Part shown: positions 22,792 through 63,775 of the stretch, one piece after another
How the letters are laid out: the number at the start of each line of letters is the position of its first letter
How positions within the stretch are numbered: position 1 is the stretch's first letter
IMG/VR virus record: IMGVR_UViG_3300045988_003641
Coordinates: 25,067-89,066 of that record
Reading direction: 5' to 3' (one strand)
DNA from: a virus
Lineage: Duplodnaviria > Heunggongvirae > Uroviricota > Caudoviricetes
DNA: 64,000 bases
Program-made: the position numbers and the translations under genes
Notes under the pieces: generated by a model
What the model saw: the letters and a program-made list of their open reading frames with translations, nothing else
The model's database searches: none
What the model was told of the DNA's origin: nothing

Positions 22792-22986
22792 ATGCCTACA
22801 ATCCTAGCAATTCTTCTAAAAAATCTAGGTAGCTTCTTCTGGAAACTCATTTTATCCCTTCTAAGTGAATACATGATTGAGAAAGTGTTCTTTAAGCTTG
22901 CAAGATATCTTGCGAGTAAAACAGACACACCTATTGATGATGAGTTCGTAGATAACTTAGAAAAAGCTTTTAAGGGGGAGAAATAA
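22792..22986 (+). CDS. small hydrophobic protein
   Basis: 64 aa, one hydrophobic helix, charged C-terminus; end of late operon. Confidence 0.3.
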   Translation: MPTILAILLKNLGSFFWKLILSLLSEYMIEKVFFKLARYLASKTDTPIDDEFVDNLEKAFKGEK

Positions 22987-23358
22987 ATGAAGTGGCTAGA
23001 GGAAGCTTTTAAAAATAATATTGGTGCAATTGTAGTTGGTATTTTTAGTGTTATTGGGATGTATACCACCATGCAAGTTTCAAGTGGTAAACAAGAAGTG
23101 TCTGTCACAACAAAGTTACAGCAGCTAGATAATTATTCAAAAAGTAACTATTCAGCTATTCATGATTTACAGTCTGACATGAGATTGATTCAGCTAGGGA
23201 TGGAGAACCAGAAAGTTCAGTTAGAGAATGTTAAGGGCGAAAACGCAAAACTTACCAAAACTCTTGATAAATTCTCTGACAGTGTAAATAATCTGGCTCA
23301 ATCAGTATCAGCCCTCCAAGCTATTACTGAGAAGAACACAAAGAATACTGAAAAATAA
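22987..23358 (+). CDS. membrane-anchored coiled-coil protein
   Basis: 123 aa; N-terminal hydrophobic segment IGAIVVGIFSVIGMY then helical region. Confidence 0.3.
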   Translation: MKWLEEAFKNNIGAIVVGIFSVIGMYTTMQVSSGKQEVSVTTKLQQLDNYSKSNYSAIHDLQSDMRLIQLGMENQKVQLENVKGENAKLTKTLDKFSDSVNNLAQSVSALQAITEKNTKNTEK

Positions 23359-30336: not shown

Positions 30337-30606
30337 TCACTCAATAACCGTAGTGTGTGATTGACCATTTTTGCCATAGCTATAAGATGTTGTTGTTTGG
30401 GAGTTTGGACATCTGACAACAACAATATCTCTGCTTATAGCATCACCATGTAACTTGTATACTCTGCAATCTTGCATCTCTGGTGGGAGACTGTAAGAAG
30501 CATTTTTATCTTCATAAGAAGGGTTGCAGCCAGATAGAAAAACAACACCAAGCGCAATTACTGCTTTCCACATAATACTTCCCCAGAGACTGTACATTTT
30601 CTTCAT
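30337..30606 (-). CDS. lipoprotein
   Basis: 89 aa; signal peptide with lipobox-like LSGC. Confidence 0.45.
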   Translation of the reverse strand: MKKMYSLWGSIMWKAVIALGVVFLSGCNPSYEDKNASYSLPPEMQDCRVYKLHGDAISRDIVVVRCPNSQTTTSYSYGKNGQSHTTVIE

Positions 30607-55470: not shown

Positions 55471-55806
55471 ATGAAAATCAAAGAAATGAACATCAACATT
55501 GTCTTAGAAGAACGTTGGGAGAACATCAAGAAGCATGAAGATGGTCATAAGTTCCTTAACAAAATTTTAGTAGCAGCTAAAGAAGAACTGGCTGGCAAGG
55601 TTGCAGCAGCAATCACAATAAAGGTTTGTGTAAAAGGTCTTCCACAACATCACCAATTTGCACTTGACGAGTTTAAAGAAAGCTTCTACAATCCAAACAA
55701 ACAGATGCTTGAAAGTAACTTTGCAGTATCTACAAGTATCGTTCATGACAGAAGCTTTATCCTTTACAAGAATATGAGAGGTGAGTCATGCAAGCATATT
55801 GGATAG
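55471..55806 (+). CDS. hypothetical protein
   Basis: 111 aa. Confidence 0.3.
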   Translation: MKIKEMNINIVLEERWENIKKHEDGHKFLNKILVAAKEELAGKVAAAITIKVCVKGLPQHHQFALDEFKESFYNPNKQMLESNFAVSTSIVHDRSFILYKNMRGESCKHIG

Positions 55807-55964
55807 AAATTTTACTGTCACTTGGTAGTGTAGCAGTATTTGTTTACCTCCTTTGTAAGTACTTTGCAGAGCACAAAAAATGTGACTACTGTAATGGAGA
55901 GGGGTACATAAGGGCAGGATGTTGTCCTATGTGTGGTGGTTCTGGTAAAATGTTTAATAAGTAA
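55788..55964 (+). CDS. small membrane-anchored zinc-finger protein (58 aa), not in ORF track
   Basis: ATG preceded by GAGAGGTGA; N-terminal hydrophobic helix then two CxxCxGxG motifs (CDYCNGEG, CPMCGGSG). Confidence 0.35.
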   Translation: MQAYWIEILLSLGSVAVFVYLLCKYFAEHKKCDYCNGEGYIRAGCCPMCGGSGKMFNK

Positions 55965-59548: not shown

Positions 59549-59564
59549 TAAGTAATTTCTTAAA

Positions 59565-59587
59565 AGGCTGCTTCGGCGGCCTTTTTT
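59565..59587 (+). terminator. rho-independent terminator (TTCG tetraloop)
   Basis: AGGCTGC-TTCG-GCGGCCT then TTTTTT. Confidence 0.6.
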
Positions 59588-59648: not shown

Positions 59649-60197
59649 ATGAAGAAATTGATTCTAGGTTTGTGCTTAATGTTTACAGCACACTTATCTT
59701 ATGCAGTTGACTGCCCAGAGCTATCAATTAGCCAAAAAGTAAACATGTTAAAAGCTTACCAGTATGGTGAGAACAACATGGGTAAAGGTTGGGGTATCAC
59801 TCTAGCTGCTATAGCCTTACAAGAGTCAGAGTTAGGTCTGAAGGTAGAGAATAAAAAGACACATGATTATGGTATTTTCCAGAATCACTTGAAGACTGTT
59901 GTAAAGCGTAACAAAATTAGTCCTAATATGGCTAAAAAGAAACTCTTAAAAGACTTTAACTATGCTGCGAAGGAAACTCACAAAGAGCTTGAGTTTTGGA
60001 CAAAGGTGCATGGTCAGCCAAAGTCAAAGAAGACTTTACAAAAAGTTTTAGCATCATATAATGCTGGGTATTCGTACAAAATCCCTAAAGCTAAGAAATA
60101 TTCTCAAGATGTCTATAACAACATGAAAGTCATTGCTCAATGTGAATTTGCAACAAACATTTCTAAGGTAAACCATGAAAAAATTAAAAAAGTCTGA
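59649..60197 (+). CDS. lytic transglycosylase with signal peptide (candidate endolysin)
   Basis: 182 aa; N-terminal signal sequence; SLT-like catalytic ES in ALQESELG plus GIFQ and SYNAGYSY motifs. Confidence 0.55.
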   Translation: MKKLILGLCLMFTAHLSYAVDCPELSISQKVNMLKAYQYGENNMGKGWGITLAAIALQESELGLKVENKKTHDYGIFQNHLKTVVKRNKISPNMAKKKLLKDFNYAAKETHKELEFWTKVHGQPKSKKTLQKVLASYNAGYSYKIPKAKKYSQDVYNNMKVIAQCEFATNISKVNHEKIKKV

Positions 60198-60870
60198 TGA
60201 AGTACTGTGTCATGCTTACGACTTACATCCTCATGAGTTAGGTCTTGATTCCTGTGTATGGACTCCAGAACAGTGTAGGGATTTTGAAGACACTGCAAGA
60301 GAAGTTGTATGCTCACTCGAAGAGTTCCACACATCAGAGCCAATTGTGAATGTTGTAGATAAAGAGACTGGACAAACTATAGGTGTAAGTCGTGATAGCT
60401 TAGTCATAGTCAATAAAGACCTTGTAGAAAAAGGTAACCTCATCTTAGCAGATATTGATGGTGTTCTTACAAATTTTAATCACGAAGATTGCTCAACGGA
60501 ATTGACTGATGGGTCATTCTCACAGTACACTAATCTTCTTGACTCTGTAAGAGCAAAACCAACGTATGTCTTTAGTATTATTGATGCAATTGCTAATCAT
60601 GCTGCCATTGGACTCTTGACAGCGAGAGGTGAATCTCAGAGAATACCTACTGAGATGTTTTTAAGGCACAATATAGAGCATGATTACTTGCTTTTTATGC
60701 GTGGTTTTGGAACTAACTCTATAAGTGCAGAAAGTTTGAAAGTGAGGATGATTCAGTCTTGCATTCTTCCTTACTTTAATATAGTATGTTTTATAGAAGA
60801 TACAGAGAAGAATGTTCAGAAGGTAAACAGAATCCTTCCACACATTAAAACCATGTTAGTTAAACACTGA
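60175..60870 (+). CDS. HAD-superfamily hydrolase (putative nucleotidase/phosphatase)
   Basis: 231 aa; motif I-like LILADIDGVLTNF. Confidence 0.4.
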   Translation: MKKLKKSDEVLCHAYDLHPHELGLDSCVWTPEQCRDFEDTAREVVCSLEEFHTSEPIVNVVDKETGQTIGVSRDSLVIVNKDLVEKGNLILADIDGVLTNFNHEDCSTELTDGSFSQYTNLLDSVRAKPTYVFSIIDAIANHAAIGLLTARGESQRIPTEMFLRHNIEHDYLLFMRGFGTNSISAESLKVRMIQSCILPYFNIVCFIEDTEKNVQKVNRILPHIKTMLVKH

Positions 60871-60879
60871 GAGAAACTT

Positions 60880-61344
60880 ATGAACAATATCATTACGGTA
60901 GCACTGGACGTTACAGCAAACAAATCTGAAGTAGTTCGTAACATTATCAAGAGCAACTTTGAAGGTAAAATCTTCCGTGCTGTCAATGTAAAAGCAGACG
61001 GTAACATCCGGGAGTATCGTGCTCTTCTGAATGTTAAGAAACACGTAAAAGGTGCTGGTTCAACGACTGCACACAAAGAAAACCTGATGACTATCTATGA
61101 TATGGGTATGGCTTCAGAGTTAGGTACTGAAGGTATCGTTAAAGAAGGTGCTCCGTATCGCTCTTTCAATCTGGAAACTGCTCTTATGCTTTCCTTTACA
61201 AGTGGTTCTAAAACAACTACTTATCTCTTTACTGATGCTGCAACGGTATCTGCTATCAAGGATAGCACCGTCAAAGCTGGGGTAGCTGCTGCTGCAAAAG
61301 CTTCTTCGATGGCTGCAAATGTCCTTGCTAAAGTCCTCGGTTAA
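60880..61344 (+). CDS. hypothetical protein
   Basis: 154 aa, Ala-rich C-terminus; followed by strong terminator. Confidence 0.3.
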   Translation: MNNIITVALDVTANKSEVVRNIIKSNFEGKIFRAVNVKADGNIREYRALLNVKKHVKGAGSTTAHKENLMTIYDMGMASELGTEGIVKEGAPYRSFNLETALMLSFTSGSKTTTYLFTDAATVSAIKDSTVKAGVAAAAKASSMAANVLAKVLG

Positions 61345-61356
61345 GGTTAAGATACA

Positions 61357-61377
61357 GGCTCCTTCGGGAGCCTTTTT
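61357..61377 (+). terminator. rho-independent terminator (TTCG tetraloop)
   Basis: GGCTCC-TTCG-GGAGCC then TTTTT. Confidence 0.6.
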
Positions 61378-61396
61378 CATTTCAGGAGATTGTTAA

Positions 61397-61744
61397 ATGA
61401 CATTTAAAGAGTTCTGTCAAGCTACTTTCATAATTGTTTTCTTAGTTGGGGCAGGTGTCTGGGGAGGATACTCTTACAGAGACTATCAAGTTGCTGAAGT
61501 TGAGCTAAATAATGAGAAACTAATAAGTGTTGCCAAAGATGCTTATCAGGAAGGTTTAGCCACACTGAGCACCAATTACAAAAATGATTTGAAAGATGTG
61601 CTTGCTAAGAATAAGCATACAAAAGAGGTACTAACGTATGAAAAGACTAAGCCAGAGTTTTATAATGTTTGTGTTACTGATAATTATGTCAGGGTGTTCA
61701 ACGAACAAAGTGAGCAGTACATTCAAAAACTCCCAAGTAAGTGA
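61397..61744 (+). CDS. i-spanin (Rz-like), putative
   Basis: 115 aa; N-terminal transmembrane helix then helical periplasmic domain; overlapped by lipoprotein ORF in +1 frame. Confidence 0.45.
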   Translation: MTFKEFCQATFIIVFLVGAGVWGGYSYRDYQVAEVELNNEKLISVAKDAYQEGLATLSTNYKNDLKDVLAKNKHTKEVLTYEKTKPEFYNVCVTDNYVRVFNEQSEQYIQKLPSK

Positions 61745-61907
61745 GAGTGATAAGTACACTCAAGAAGAATCACGGTATATCATCAAAGGCAACACAGGCA
61801 GCGATGTAGCAGCAGCCCTTGAGTTCTATCGTGACGGCTTTTACCAGTGCACAATCAAAGCTAACAACCTTATTGACATGATTTTATTAGGGAATAAGCA
61901 GCAATGA
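61638..61907 (+). CDS. o-spanin (Rz1-like) lipoprotein, putative
   Basis: 89 aa; start embedded in i-spanin gene in +1 frame; signal peptide with lipobox-like IMSGC. Confidence 0.4.
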   Translation: MKRLSQSFIMFVLLIIMSGCSTNKVSSTFKNSQVSESDKYTQEESRYIIKGNTGSDVAAALEFYRDGFYQCTIKANNLIDMILLGNKQQ

Positions 61908-62917: not shown

Positions 62918-63703
62918 ATGGGTATTGTAAAAATCATCAATGGTGATATCTTTGCTGCATTTGATAAAGGTAAGTTTGACATCATTGGTCATGGTTGTAA
63001 CTGCATGAACCTAATGGGCGCAGGTATCGCTGACAAGATTTCTAAACTTTACCCAAAAGCATATGAGACCGATACAGAAGTTTATCTCTATGCAGGTGGT
63101 ATAGGTCACAAACCCTGTGAGAATTTACTAGGTAATTTCTCTGTAGCACGCTTAAAACAAGGTCGTATAGCTAACCTTTACACTCAGCTTAAGACTGGTA
63201 AAGATGCCCGATACAGTGCTTTAGAGTCATCTTTGAAGCAACTTAACAGATACTGTGAAGTTAATCAGTTGAAGAAAGTTGGTTTACCTATGATTGGTGC
63301 AGGTATCGGTGGACTTGACCCTCAAGCCGTCACAGTTATCATCAATCAGGTGATGAAGAGTGTAGATGTTTATCTATATGTCTATGAAGGAGAGATGTAC
63401 CACAAGTTACTCTCAGGTTGGAAGAACTACTGTGAACCAGAATACTTTGCAGGTGTAGCAGTGTTCACAGATAACGCAGTTACCCTCTTCAGACGAAGAA
63501 AAGGTAAGATACATCAAAGTAACCCTCCGGTTGAAAAGATGTCTCTAAGTAACGCTCTAGTTACCCACCTGTCAAAGAGCAATCACAGAATTGCTGTAAC
63601 ATTTGGTAGTGATGCAGAAGCTTATATCTATGCAAGAACTGATGAGGATATTGAGGCAATCTTCTCTTCACCAGAAGTTACCTTCTTAGACGCAAAGAAC
63701 TAA
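62918..63703 (+). CDS. macro-domain protein (ADP-ribose binding/processing), putative
   Basis: 261 aa; N-terminal INGDIFAA...DIIGHGCNCMNLMGAGIA resembles macro-domain ADP-ribose pocket; C-terminal ~110 aa of unknown function. Confidence 0.5.
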   Translation: MGIVKIINGDIFAAFDKGKFDIIGHGCNCMNLMGAGIADKISKLYPKAYETDTEVYLYAGGIGHKPCENLLGNFSVARLKQGRIANLYTQLKTGKDARYSALESSLKQLNRYCEVNQLKKVGLPMIGAGIGGLDPQAVTVIINQVMKSVDVYLYVYEGEMYHKLLSGWKNYCEPEYFAGVAVFTDNAVTLFRRRKGKIHQSNPPVEKMSLSNALVTHLSKSNHRIAVTFGSDAEAYIYARTDEDIEAIFSSPEVTFLDAKN

Positions 63704-63775
63704 GAAACTCTGTAGGATATTCACAATAGCCTAAGCCTTTCTTATCTGGTAAATTTTTCAGGTAAGGAGGGCTTT

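What the first reader, a model, noticed from the sequence alone, without database searches (positions are those of the whole stretch)
61397..61907. Overlapping spanin pair next to a signal-peptide lytic transglycosylase
A transmembrane coiled-coil protein (61397-61744) is overlapped in the +1 frame by a lipoprotein ORF (61638-61907, lipobox-like IMSGC), the classic Rz/Rz1 arrangement. The upstream SLT-type lytic transglycosylase (59649-60197) has a signal sequence, suggesting a secreted or signal-anchor-release endolysin. No holin was identified with confidence.
Basis: partly seen in the sequence, partly recalled or inferred. Interest (0 to 1): 0.4.

Follow-up and report, generated by a model that had tools for sequence, protein, structure and literature searches.

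The report
Known overlapped spanin pair, Felix O1-like phage
This is the ordinary, already catalogued pair of overlapping phage genes (inner-membrane and outer-membrane spanin) that Felix O1-like phages are thought to use to break the outer membrane at lysis; the nearby secreted lysozyme-like gene is probably not the phage's endolysin.

Summary
The window is about 64 kb of a Felixounavirus (Felix O1-like myophage), about 96% identical to many deposited genomes. Both ORFs exist exactly as described. ORF 61397-61744 encodes 115 aa with one N-terminal transmembrane segment. ORF 61638-61907 encodes 89 aa in the +1 frame, overlaps the first by 107 nt, and has a signal peptide with lipobox IMSG|C and Ser at +2.

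The pair is real. It is conserved across Ounavirinae and in podophage phiEco32 down to about 26-35% identity, with the lipobox Cys and one periplasmic Cys per protein invariant. The shared segment diverges about half as fast as its flanks.

It is already known. The same ORFs are annotated i-spanin/o-spanin in many GenBank records, and Kongari et al. 2018 list this family (Felix01, FSL_SP-107, Moogle, phiEco32) in the "overlapped" class. The layout is therefore not the embedded lambda Rz/Rz1 arrangement.

The "SLT endolysin" reading is not supported. That ORF has a GH23/SLT-like fold and a cleavable-looking signal peptide. However, it is a homologue of T4/T2 Vs.1, lies 1.2 kb upstream in a separate terminator-bounded unit, and the genus's annotated soluble lysozyme endolysin lies outside the window. 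Ordinary; low interest.

The parts
61397..61744 (+). i-spanin gene (115 aa): N-terminal transmembrane segment at residues about 6-27 and a periplasmic domain of about 88 aa, with an invariant Cys92 in a conserved F-x-N-x-C motif
   Evidence: ORF and sequence. PHROG 1152 'Rz-like spanin' at E=1.5e-41. Annotated i-spanin in Meda, VSe11, GEC_vB_B1 and Moogle. Alignment A2 gives the invariant residues.
61638..61907 (+). o-spanin gene (89 aa; about 70 aa once matured). It is in the +1 frame relative to the i-spanin and overlaps it by 107 nt. It has a signal peptide with lipobox IMSG|C20, Ser at +2, an invariant Cys71 and no proline in the mature part.
   Evidence: Sequence features. PHROG 4180 at 1.2e-50, and a weak match to PHROG 456 'Rz-like spanin' at 1.9e-4. 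100% identical to the FSL SP-107 ORF. Annotated o-spanin in relatives. Alignment A3.
61638..61744 (+). Segment read in two frames: the 3' end of the i-spanin and the 5' end of the o-spanin (signal peptide, lipobox and first mature residues)
   Evidence: Nucleotide divergence is about half that of the flanks: versus Moogle 11.2% against 25.7% and 29.6%; versus Meda 1.9% against 5.0% and 9.9%.
61384..61388 (+). Shine-Dalgarno AGGAG, 8 nt before the i-spanin ATG
   Evidence: Read from the sequence. An RBS is annotated at the same place in Meda.
61624..61628 (+). Shine-Dalgarno AGAGG, 9 nt before the o-spanin ATG, inside the i-spanin coding sequence
   Evidence: Read from the sequence. An RBS is annotated at the same place in Meda.
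61356..61373 (+). Intrinsic-terminator-like hairpin plus T-run, 23 nt upstream of the i-spanin start. It separates the spanin unit from the vs.1-like/pseT/hypothetical unit.
   Evidence: Pattern scan. Annotated as a terminator in Meda.
59649..60197 (+). Vs.1-like secreted GH23/SLT-like protein (182 aa). It has a signal peptide ending SYA|VD and a catalytic-type E59-S60. It is context only, and probably not the lysis endolysin.
   Evidence: Pfam SLT at 18.8 bits, below the 21.3 cut-off. PHROG 600, the same family as T2 Vs.1. Alignments A1 and A4. AF2 model pLDDT 85. Foldseek best hits are g-type lysozyme and soluble lytic transglycosylases.
60175..60870 (+). pseT-type polynucleotide kinase/phosphatase gene, lying between the Vs.1-like gene and the spanins (context)
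   Evidence: PHROG 3970 at E=2.7e-134. Annotated in relatives.
22987..23358 (+). Candidate holin of the same lysis system, about 38 kb away (123 aa, one N-terminal transmembrane segment plus a long helical C-terminal part). Prediction only.
   Evidence: Annotated 'holin/putative holin' in many relatives. PHROG 4038 has unknown function. Only coiled-coil noise in Pfam and NCBIfam.

Best explanation
The two ORFs encode the two-component spanin of a Felix O1-like myophage.

Proposed mechanism, by analogy with lambda Rz/Rz1 and T4 PseT.3/PseT.2:
1. The 115-aa protein is anchored in the inner membrane by its N-terminal transmembrane segment, with about 88 residues in the periplasm.
2. The 89-aa protein is exported and lipidated at Cys20 after signal peptidase II cleavage. 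Because residue +2 is Ser rather than Asp, the Lol system sorts it to the inner leaflet of the outer membrane.
3. The two periplasmic C-terminal regions bind each other and form a bridge threaded through the peptidoglycan meshwork.
4. Once the endolysin has destroyed the murein, the complexes are free to move and collapse. This fuses the inner and outer membranes and removes the last barrier to phage release.
5. The invariant Cys92 (i-spanin) and Cys71 (o-spanin) probably form Dsb-dependent intermolecular disulfides that stabilise the complex.

Shown here: the anatomy, the conservation, the dual-frame constraint and the family membership. Inferred: topology, lipidation, complex formation, disulfides and the lysis role. 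No member of this family was found to have been tested experimentally.
For: - ORFs, frame, transmembrane segment, lipobox, +2 Ser and ribosome-binding sites.
- PHROG 1152 'Rz-like spanin' at E=1.5e-41.
- Identical gene pair annotated i-/o-spanin by several groups, including the CPT spanin tools.
- Kongari et al. 2018 list the family (Felix01, FO1a, FSL_SP-107, Moogle, Mushroom, PhiEco32, WV8) and the overlapped architecture.
- The +1 ORF with signal peptide and lipobox is preserved in Hafnia phage Zyzzx, Erwinia Kolesnikvirus and phiEco32 at 26-47% identity, even where GenBank truncates it.
- Lipobox Cys20, Cys71 and i-spanin Cys92 are invariant.
- The overlap segment evolves about 2-fold slower than the flanks.
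- T4 gives a precedent: short spanins (117 and 99 aa) that lie away from holin and endolysin, next to pseT, and that complement lambda Rz/Rz1.
Against: - No experimental test of this family was found.
- The genes are far from the endolysin (outside the window) and from the putative holin (about 38 kb away). They sit among early-type accessory genes (rIIB, vs.1-like, pseT, macro-domain protein) directly after a terminator, with no clear promoter.
- Neither Pfam nor NCBIfam has a model that matches either protein.
- The o-spanin's own PHROG (4180) is labelled 'unknown function'.
- The mature o-spanin has no proline, unlike the lambda Rz1 type.
- A coiled-coil character of the i-spanin could not be demonstrated.
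- The lipobox pattern alone is within chance expectation.
Confidence: 0.85

Rival explanations
1. The pair is an inner-membrane protein plus an outer-membrane lipoprotein with a non-lysis role. It could, for example, be an early-expressed superinfection-exclusion or envelope-modifying module, in the manner of lipoproteins such as T5 Llp or Cor, and merely resemble spanins in topology.
For: - It lies in an early-type accessory gene cluster far from the endolysin and the putative holin.
- PHROG 4180 is labelled 'unknown function'.
- No experimental data were found for this family.
- The mature o-spanin has no proline.
Against: - The overlapped +1-frame pairing of a transmembrane protein with an outer-membrane lipoprotein is the signature used to define spanins, and this family is catalogued as such.
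- T4's functional spanins sit in the same kind of pseT-linked early region.
- No other spanin candidate was seen in the window. The other lipobox ORF, at 30337-30606, has no overlapping or adjacent transmembrane partner in the hydrophobic-ORF scan.
- The paired, conserved periplasmic cysteines fit the spanin rule.
Confidence: 0.07
2. One reading: the signal-peptide SLT-like protein (59649-60197) is the phage's endolysin, either secreted or signal-anchor-release. Together with the spanin pair it forms a compact lysis cluster.
For: - GH23/SLT-like fold, with an invariant catalytic-type Glu59 and YNxG motif.
- N-terminal export signal.
- Some GenBank records call it 'lysin'.
- Nolan et al. 2006 speculated that vs.1 has a lysis role.
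Against: - It is in PHROG 600 with T4/T2 Vs.1. T4 lysis depends on gpE, and Vs.1 is not a known lysis gene (textbook knowledge).
- Felix O1-like phages have a separate annotated soluble lysozyme endolysin (PMC4319497, PMC6486253).
- The gene is separated from the spanins by pseT, another gene and a terminator.
- The h-region is only about 13 residues and is followed by an SYA|VD cleavage-type site. This looks like a cleaved Sec signal, not a SAR anchor (inspection only).
- The Pfam SLT score is below the gathering threshold.
Confidence: 0.08
3. The +1-frame lipoprotein ORF is a chance open frame, and only the 115-aa gene is real.
For: - Lipobox-pattern ORFs occur at about 1.2 per shuffled window.
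- Several GenBank records do not annotate it, or truncate it.
Against: - The frame is open, with signal peptide, lipobox and a conserved C-terminal Cys motif, in 314 records and in relatives down to 26% identity.
- It has its own Shine-Dalgarno sequence.
- Nucleotide divergence is reduced in the shared segment.
- In the o-spanin-only segment, the closest relatives show only synonymous changes: 6 synonymous and 0 non-synonymous versus GEC_vB_B1 and VSe11.
Confidence: 0.01

Closest known systems
Felix O1 / phiEco32 spanin family ('JH2' family of SpaninDB, Kongari et al. 2018; i-spanin = PHROG 1152)
   Same: It is the same family and the same overlapped architecture. The o-spanin is 100% identical to that of Salmonella phage FSL SP-107, and the i-spanin is 99% identical to those of several Felixounavirus isolates.
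   Different: Nothing of substance; this is another isolate's copy. The only point worth noting is that several public records truncate the o-spanin 5' end and so lose the lipobox.
Phage lambda Rz/Rz1
   Same: Both are two-component spanins: a type II inner-membrane protein plus an outer-membrane lipoprotein encoded in the +1 frame, with periplasmic cysteines.
   Different: - Lambda Rz1 is wholly embedded in Rz. Here the o-spanin only overlaps the 3' end by 107 nt and extends 163 nt beyond it.
- The mature o-spanin here is 70 aa with no proline; lambda Rz1 is about 40 aa and proline-rich (from general knowledge).
- These genes are not in a lysis cassette.
- No sequence similarity was detected (Pfam: no hit).
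Phage T4 PseT.3/PseT.2
   Same: - Similar sizes: 117 and 99 aa in T4, 115 and 89 aa here.
- Both pairs lie away from holin and endolysin, are linked to the polynucleotide kinase gene pseT and sit in an accessory-gene region.
- The T4 pair has been shown to replace lambda Rz/Rz1.
   Different: - No detectable sequence similarity: BLASTP E>8 and different PHROGs, 739/812 against 1152/4180.
- The T4 genes are 'separated' (4-nt overlap) and lie upstream of pseT, whereas here they overlap by 107 nt and lie downstream.
- T4 has no periplasmic Cys in the i-spanin and 2 in the o-spanin; here there is 1 in each.
T4/T2 Vs.1 (PHROG 600), for the upstream SLT-like ORF
   Same: - Same PHROG, with E=2.7e-57 here and 2.8e-68 for T2 Vs.1.
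- About 32-35% identity.
- Both have an N-terminal signal peptide and the motifs ES, YG(I/M)FQN and SYN(A/S)G.
   Different: The neighbours differ: rIIB and pseT here, regB and vs in T2. The function is unknown in both.

Membership tests
Two-component spanin (functional class) | i-spanin: a small protein with a single N-terminal transmembrane segment and a periplasmic C-terminal domain | tested here: met
   There is one hydrophobic 19-mer (Kyte-Doolittle 1.75) at residues 6-24 and none elsewhere. The N-in/C-out orientation is inferred, not tested.
Two-component spanin (functional class) | o-spanin: a signal peptidase II signal with a lipobox Cys and no Asp at +2 (outer-membrane sorting) | tested here: met
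   MKRLSQSFIMFVLLIIMSG|C-S passes a PS51257-type pattern, and +2 is Ser. The feature is conserved in Moogle, Zyzzx, Kolesnikvirus and phiEco32. LipoP and SignalP are not available here.
Two-component spanin (functional class) | The o-spanin gene is embedded in, overlaps or immediately follows the i-spanin gene | tested here: met
   +1 frame with a 107-nt overlap.
Two-component spanin (functional class) | At least one periplasmic cysteine available for intermolecular disulfides (true of about 96% of known pairs) | tested here: met
   i-spanin Cys92 and o-spanin Cys71 are both invariant in alignments A2 and A3. The rule is taken from Kongari et al..
Two-component spanin (functional class) | Required for outer-membrane disruption at lysis; the two proteins form a complex through their C-termini | not testable with these tools
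   This needs genetics or biochemistry. No experiment on this family was found.
Felix O1/phiEco32 spanin family (SpaninDB 'JH2'; PHROG 1152) | Significant sequence match to family members | tested here: met
   PHROG 1152 at E=1.5e-41 over the full length. tblastn gives 95-99% identity to Felixounavirus, 77% to Moogle and 33% to phiEco32. The members are listed in PMC6139136.
Lambda-type embedded Rz/Rz1 architecture | o-spanin ORF entirely contained within the i-spanin ORF | tested here: not met
   The o-spanin ends at 61907, 163 nt beyond the i-spanin stop at 61744. This is the overlapped class.
T4 PseT.3/PseT.2 spanin families (PHROG 739/812) | Sequence homology | tested here: not met
   BLASTP gives E=16 and E=8.7. 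The T4 proteins fall in different PHROGs.
GH23 / SLT lytic transglycosylase domain (upstream ORF 59649-60197) | Pfam PF01464 match above the gathering score | tested here: inconclusive
   18.8 bits against a cut-off of 21.3, E=1.2e-3. Five more distant homologues carry a precomputed PF01464 hit.
GH23 / SLT lytic transglycosylase domain (upstream ORF 59649-60197) | Catalytic Glu-Ser motif, GxxQ and YNxG motifs, and a lysozyme-like fold | tested here: met
   E59, Q78, Y137, N138 and G140 are invariant, and S60 is nearly so. The AF2 model has pLDDT 85. The best Foldseek PDB hits are g-type lysozyme 3gxk, GH23 chitinase 3w6f and Slt Cj0843, with TM 0.45-0.53 and best E=7.7e-3. Enzymatic activity was not tested.
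SAR (signal-anchor-release) or secreted endolysin (upstream ORF) | It is the phage's lysis muralytic enzyme, with an uncleaved, weakly hydrophobic N-terminal anchor | tested here: not met
   The h-region is about 13 residues and is followed by SYA|VD, a cleavable type (inspection only). The ORF is a homologue of T4 Vs.1. A separate soluble lysozyme endolysin is annotated in the genus. The role in lysis is not testable here.

The most novel reading that the evidence does not exclude
In this family each subunit keeps exactly one invariant periplasmic cysteine, and each lies in its conserved C-terminal region: i-spanin Cys92 and o-spanin Cys71. These C-terminal regions are presumed to be where the two subunits interact. 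The two cysteines could therefore form a heterotypic i-spanin/o-spanin disulfide, which would be a covalent link from inner membrane to outer membrane. Kongari et al. mention that possibility, but only homotypic linkages were found in lambda and T4. A second, independent open point is that the secreted Vs.1-like GH23 enzyme could be an accessory lysis factor or a peptidoglycan-remodelling factor shared by T4-like, Vi1-like and Felix O1-like phages.
Probability: 0.12. Interest if true: 0.35.

Novelty: already known. Interest (0 to 1): 0.08.

Why it matters
It matters little beyond correct annotation. The pair completes the predicted lysis gene set of a Felix O1-like phage, a group used in Salmonella and E. 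coli diagnostics and biocontrol.

Two practical points follow:
- Several public records truncate the o-spanin and so lose its lipobox.
- The Vs.1-like GH23 protein should not be labelled 'lysin/endolysin' without evidence.

The spanin family itself has never been tested experimentally, so a simple lambda complementation assay would turn a prediction into a fact.

Tried and rejected
- Sequence searches of both spanins and the SLT-like ORF against PDB chains found nothing significant.
- Pfam and NCBIfam have no model for either spanin. The only hits are noise far below the cut-offs.
- A single-sequence AlphaFold run on the i-spanin gave pLDDT 42 and is not usable.
- A crude 3.5-residue periodicity and heptad-register test gave no significant coiled-coil signal. 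I therefore neither confirm nor reject 'coiled-coil'.
- Homology of these spanins to T4 PseT.3/PseT.2 was tested and rejected.
- I looked for the Felix O1-type endolysin inside the window. tblastn gave only a chance hit at E=0.66.
- A literature search for 'LysO1' found nothing in the held library.
They were not pursued.
- A sigma-70 promoter for the spanin unit could not be identified convincingly. The scan found 19 sites against 14.4 expected by chance.

Full report
**Where the window comes from.** The 4 kb around the finding and the last 24 kb of the window match more than 270 phage records by megablast. The best matches are about 96-98% identical, and almost all are Felixounavirus (Felix O1-like myophages of Escherichia, Salmonella and Shigella). 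Mapping against Salmonella phage Meda shows the window is collinear with about 64 kb of such a genome. It runs from the terminase and structural genes through the replication genes to rIIA, rIIB and the region of the finding.

**The observation.**
- The second ORF starts 241 nt after the first. It is therefore in the +1 frame, and the two share 107 nt.
- The first protein has a single hydrophobic stretch at residues about 6-27.
- The second protein begins MKRLSQSFIMFVLLIIMSG|CST. This gives a basic n-region, a hydrophobic core, a lipobox that passes a PROSITE PS51257-type pattern, and Ser rather than Asp after the lipidated Cys.
- Each ORF has its own Shine-Dalgarno sequence.
- A lipobox pattern alone is weak evidence. 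The window has two such ORFs, and shuffled sequence gives 1.2 +/- 1.3.

**Why the pair is real.**
- The comparative picture is what makes it real. tblastn finds the first protein in 405 phage records and the second in 314, all at >=80% coverage.
- In distant relatives I extended the +1 frame upstream wherever GenBank had truncated the gene. These were Hafnia phage Zyzzx, Erwinia/Salmonella Kolesnikvirus and the podophage phiEco32. In every case I recovered a signal peptide plus lipobox (TSG|C, TAS|C, SA|C) and an overlap of 116-137 nt.
- Alignments show the lipobox Cys20, a second Cys71 in the o-spanin and Cys92 in the i-spanin to be invariant at 26-47% overall identity.
- Against Moogle, the shared segment differs at 11.2% of positions. 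The i-spanin-only and o-spanin-only segments differ at 25.7% and 29.6%. The same trend holds against Meda. This is what selection on both frames would produce.

**What it is, and that it is known.**
- The i-spanin matches PHROG 1152 'Rz-like spanin' over its full length (E=1.5e-41).
- The o-spanin matches PHROG 4180, which is unannotated (E=1.2e-50), and weakly matches PHROG 456 'Rz-like spanin'.
- The very same ORFs are annotated i-spanin/o-spanin in Meda (found with the CPT ISP/OSP tools), VSe11, GEC_vB_B1, Moogle and many others.
- The genome announcements for Moogle and Meda state that Felix O1-like phages have spanins, an endolysin and sometimes a putative holin scattered around the genome rather than in a cassette.
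- The spanin census of Kongari et al. 2018 lists one family containing JH2, EC6, FO1a, FSL_SP-010/-012/-107, Felix01, Moogle, Mushroom, PhiEco32, UAB_phi87 and WV8. It places Felix01, FO1a and UAB_phi87 in the 'overlapped' class.
- The o-spanin here is 100% identical to that of FSL SP-107. So this is another copy of a catalogued gene pair.

**Mechanism.** The mechanism is inferred by analogy with lambda Rz/Rz1 and T4 PseT.3/PseT.2.
- The i-spanin is held in the inner membrane.
- The o-spanin is lipidated at Cys20 and sorted to the outer membrane.
- Their C-terminal regions bind across the periplasm.
- Once the endolysin has removed the murein, the complexes fuse the two membranes.
- The conserved cysteines fit the rule that nearly all two-component spanins carry periplasmic Cys for intermolecular disulfides.

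Only the anatomy and the conservation are shown here. Topology, lipidation, complex formation and lysis function are inferred, and I found no experiment on this family.

**Differences from the textbook cases.**
- Architecture: lambda Rz1 is wholly embedded in Rz. Here the o-spanin runs 163 nt beyond the i-spanin stop, so 'classic Rz/Rz1 arrangement' is inexact.
- Composition: the mature o-spanin is about 70 residues with no proline.
- Coiled coil: I could not substantiate this label. A crude heptad and periodicity test is not significant, and the single-sequence AlphaFold model is helical but unreliable.
- T4: the T4 spanins are of similar size and also sit next to the polynucleotide kinase gene pseT, upstream of it. 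Here the spanins are downstream of pseT. The proteins show no detectable similarity and fall in different PHROGs.

**The 'signal-peptide lytic transglycosylase'.** ORF 59649-60197 is real.
- Fold and motifs: its Pfam SLT score is just below threshold, at 18.8 bits against 21.3. A 15-sequence alignment keeps the catalytic-type Glu59(-Ser60), Q78 and the Y137-N138-x-G140 motif invariant. The AlphaFold model is confident (pLDDT 85, core above 95). Its best PDB fold matches are all GH23 lysozyme-like proteins: g-type lysozyme, GH23 chitinase, and the soluble lytic transglycosylases Cj0843, Slt70, EtgA, MltD and MltF. The scores are modest (best E=7.7e-3, TM about 0.5). A GH23/SLT-like fold with an N-terminal export signal is therefore supported.
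- Why the endolysin inference is not supported:
  1. The protein is in PHROG 600 together with T2/T4 Vs.1. It aligns with Vs.1 at about 32-35% identity, including the signal peptide and motifs. The marginal SLT similarity of vs.1 was already noted in 2006. T4 lysis uses gpE, not Vs.1 (textbook knowledge).
  2. Felix O1-like phages carry an annotated soluble lysozyme endolysin, for example Meda_090 and Moogle91. That gene has no counterpart in this window.
  3. The gene is not adjacent to the spanins. pseT, a 154-aa ORF and a terminator-like hairpin (61356-61373) lie between them. Terminators at 59562-59585 and 63733-63774 bound the two units.
  4. The hydrophobic core is only about 13 residues and is followed by SYA|VD. 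This looks like a cleaved Sec signal rather than a SAR anchor (inspection only).

**Holin.**
- The second, 22987-23358, encodes 123 aa with one N-terminal transmembrane segment and a long helical tail, and lies just after the tail-fibre gene. It is the gene annotated 'holin' or 'putative holin' in many relatives.
- The other two candidates are small membrane proteins with no functional label.

**Verdict.**
- The spanin interpretation is supported, but it is already known and catalogued.
- The 'classic embedded' description and the endolysin partnership are not supported.
- The only mildly open questions are whether the single conserved Cys in each subunit forms homotypic or heterotypic disulfides, and what the widely conserved secreted Vs.1-like GH23 protein does.

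Noticed in passing
window 30337-30606 (-): An 89-aa ORF with a strong lipoprotein signal (MKKMYSLWGSIMWKAVIALGVVFLSG|C). It is the only other PS51257-type lipobox ORF in the window. It falls in PHROG 902 (unknown function) and has no Pfam hit. It might be a superinfection-exclusion-type lipoprotein.
   Followed up: partly
window 55788-55964 (+): A 58-aa protein directly upstream of rIIA, with an N-terminal transmembrane segment followed by a CxxCxGxG zinc-finger-like motif. The Pfam DnaJ_CXXCXGXG hit is weak (2.9e-3), and it falls in PHROG 3931 (unknown function).
   Followed up: partly
window 22792-23358 (+): There are two ORFs just after the tail-fibre gene. One encodes a 64-aa hydrophobic protein (PHROG 402). 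The other encodes a 123-aa protein with one transmembrane segment and a helical tail (PHROG 4038). Many records call the second one 'holin' without family or experimental support.
   Followed up: partly
window 59649-60197 (+); L007:1501-2046 (T2 vs.1): The secreted GH23/SLT-like protein is a homologue of T4/T2 Vs.1. tblastn finds it in more than 2100 phage records, including T4-like, Vi1-like, Felix O1-like and Aeromonas/Vibrio phages. Its function is unknown, and neighbouring-gene names such as 'RegB' are sometimes wrongly attached to it.
   Followed up: yes
window 60175-61907; L008:3503-5282 (T4): The spanin genes are linked to the polynucleotide kinase gene pseT in both T4 (spanins upstream) and Felix O1-like phages (spanins downstream), although the spanin families are unrelated in sequence. 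A macro-domain ('phosphatase', Tk.4-like) gene follows the spanin unit here (62918-63703), in Kolesnikvirus and in phiEco32.
   Followed up: partly
L002:5644-5841; L009:2805-2984; L010:2766-2939; L012:2859-2987: The public o-spanin CDSs of GEC_vB_B1, Hafnia phage Zyzzx, phiEco32 (phi32_38) and SeKF_13 are annotated with downstream starts that remove the signal peptide and lipobox. The full +1-frame ORFs restore them, for example L009:2688-2984 and L010:2679-2939.
   Followed up: yes
window 60175-60870 (+) vs L001:1783-2478: The pseT-type polynucleotide kinase is intact here (231 aa). In phage Meda it is split into two ORFs by an in-frame stop that its authors confirmed by resequencing.
   Followed up: no
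window 61356-61373, 59562-59585, 63733-63774 (+): Three strong terminator-like hairpins delimit two units: vs.1-like/pseT/154-aa ORF, and spanins/four small ORFs/macro-domain gene. The i-spanin ATG lies only 23 nt after a terminator and has no convincing sigma-70 promoter, so how and when the spanins are transcribed is unclear.
   Followed up: no
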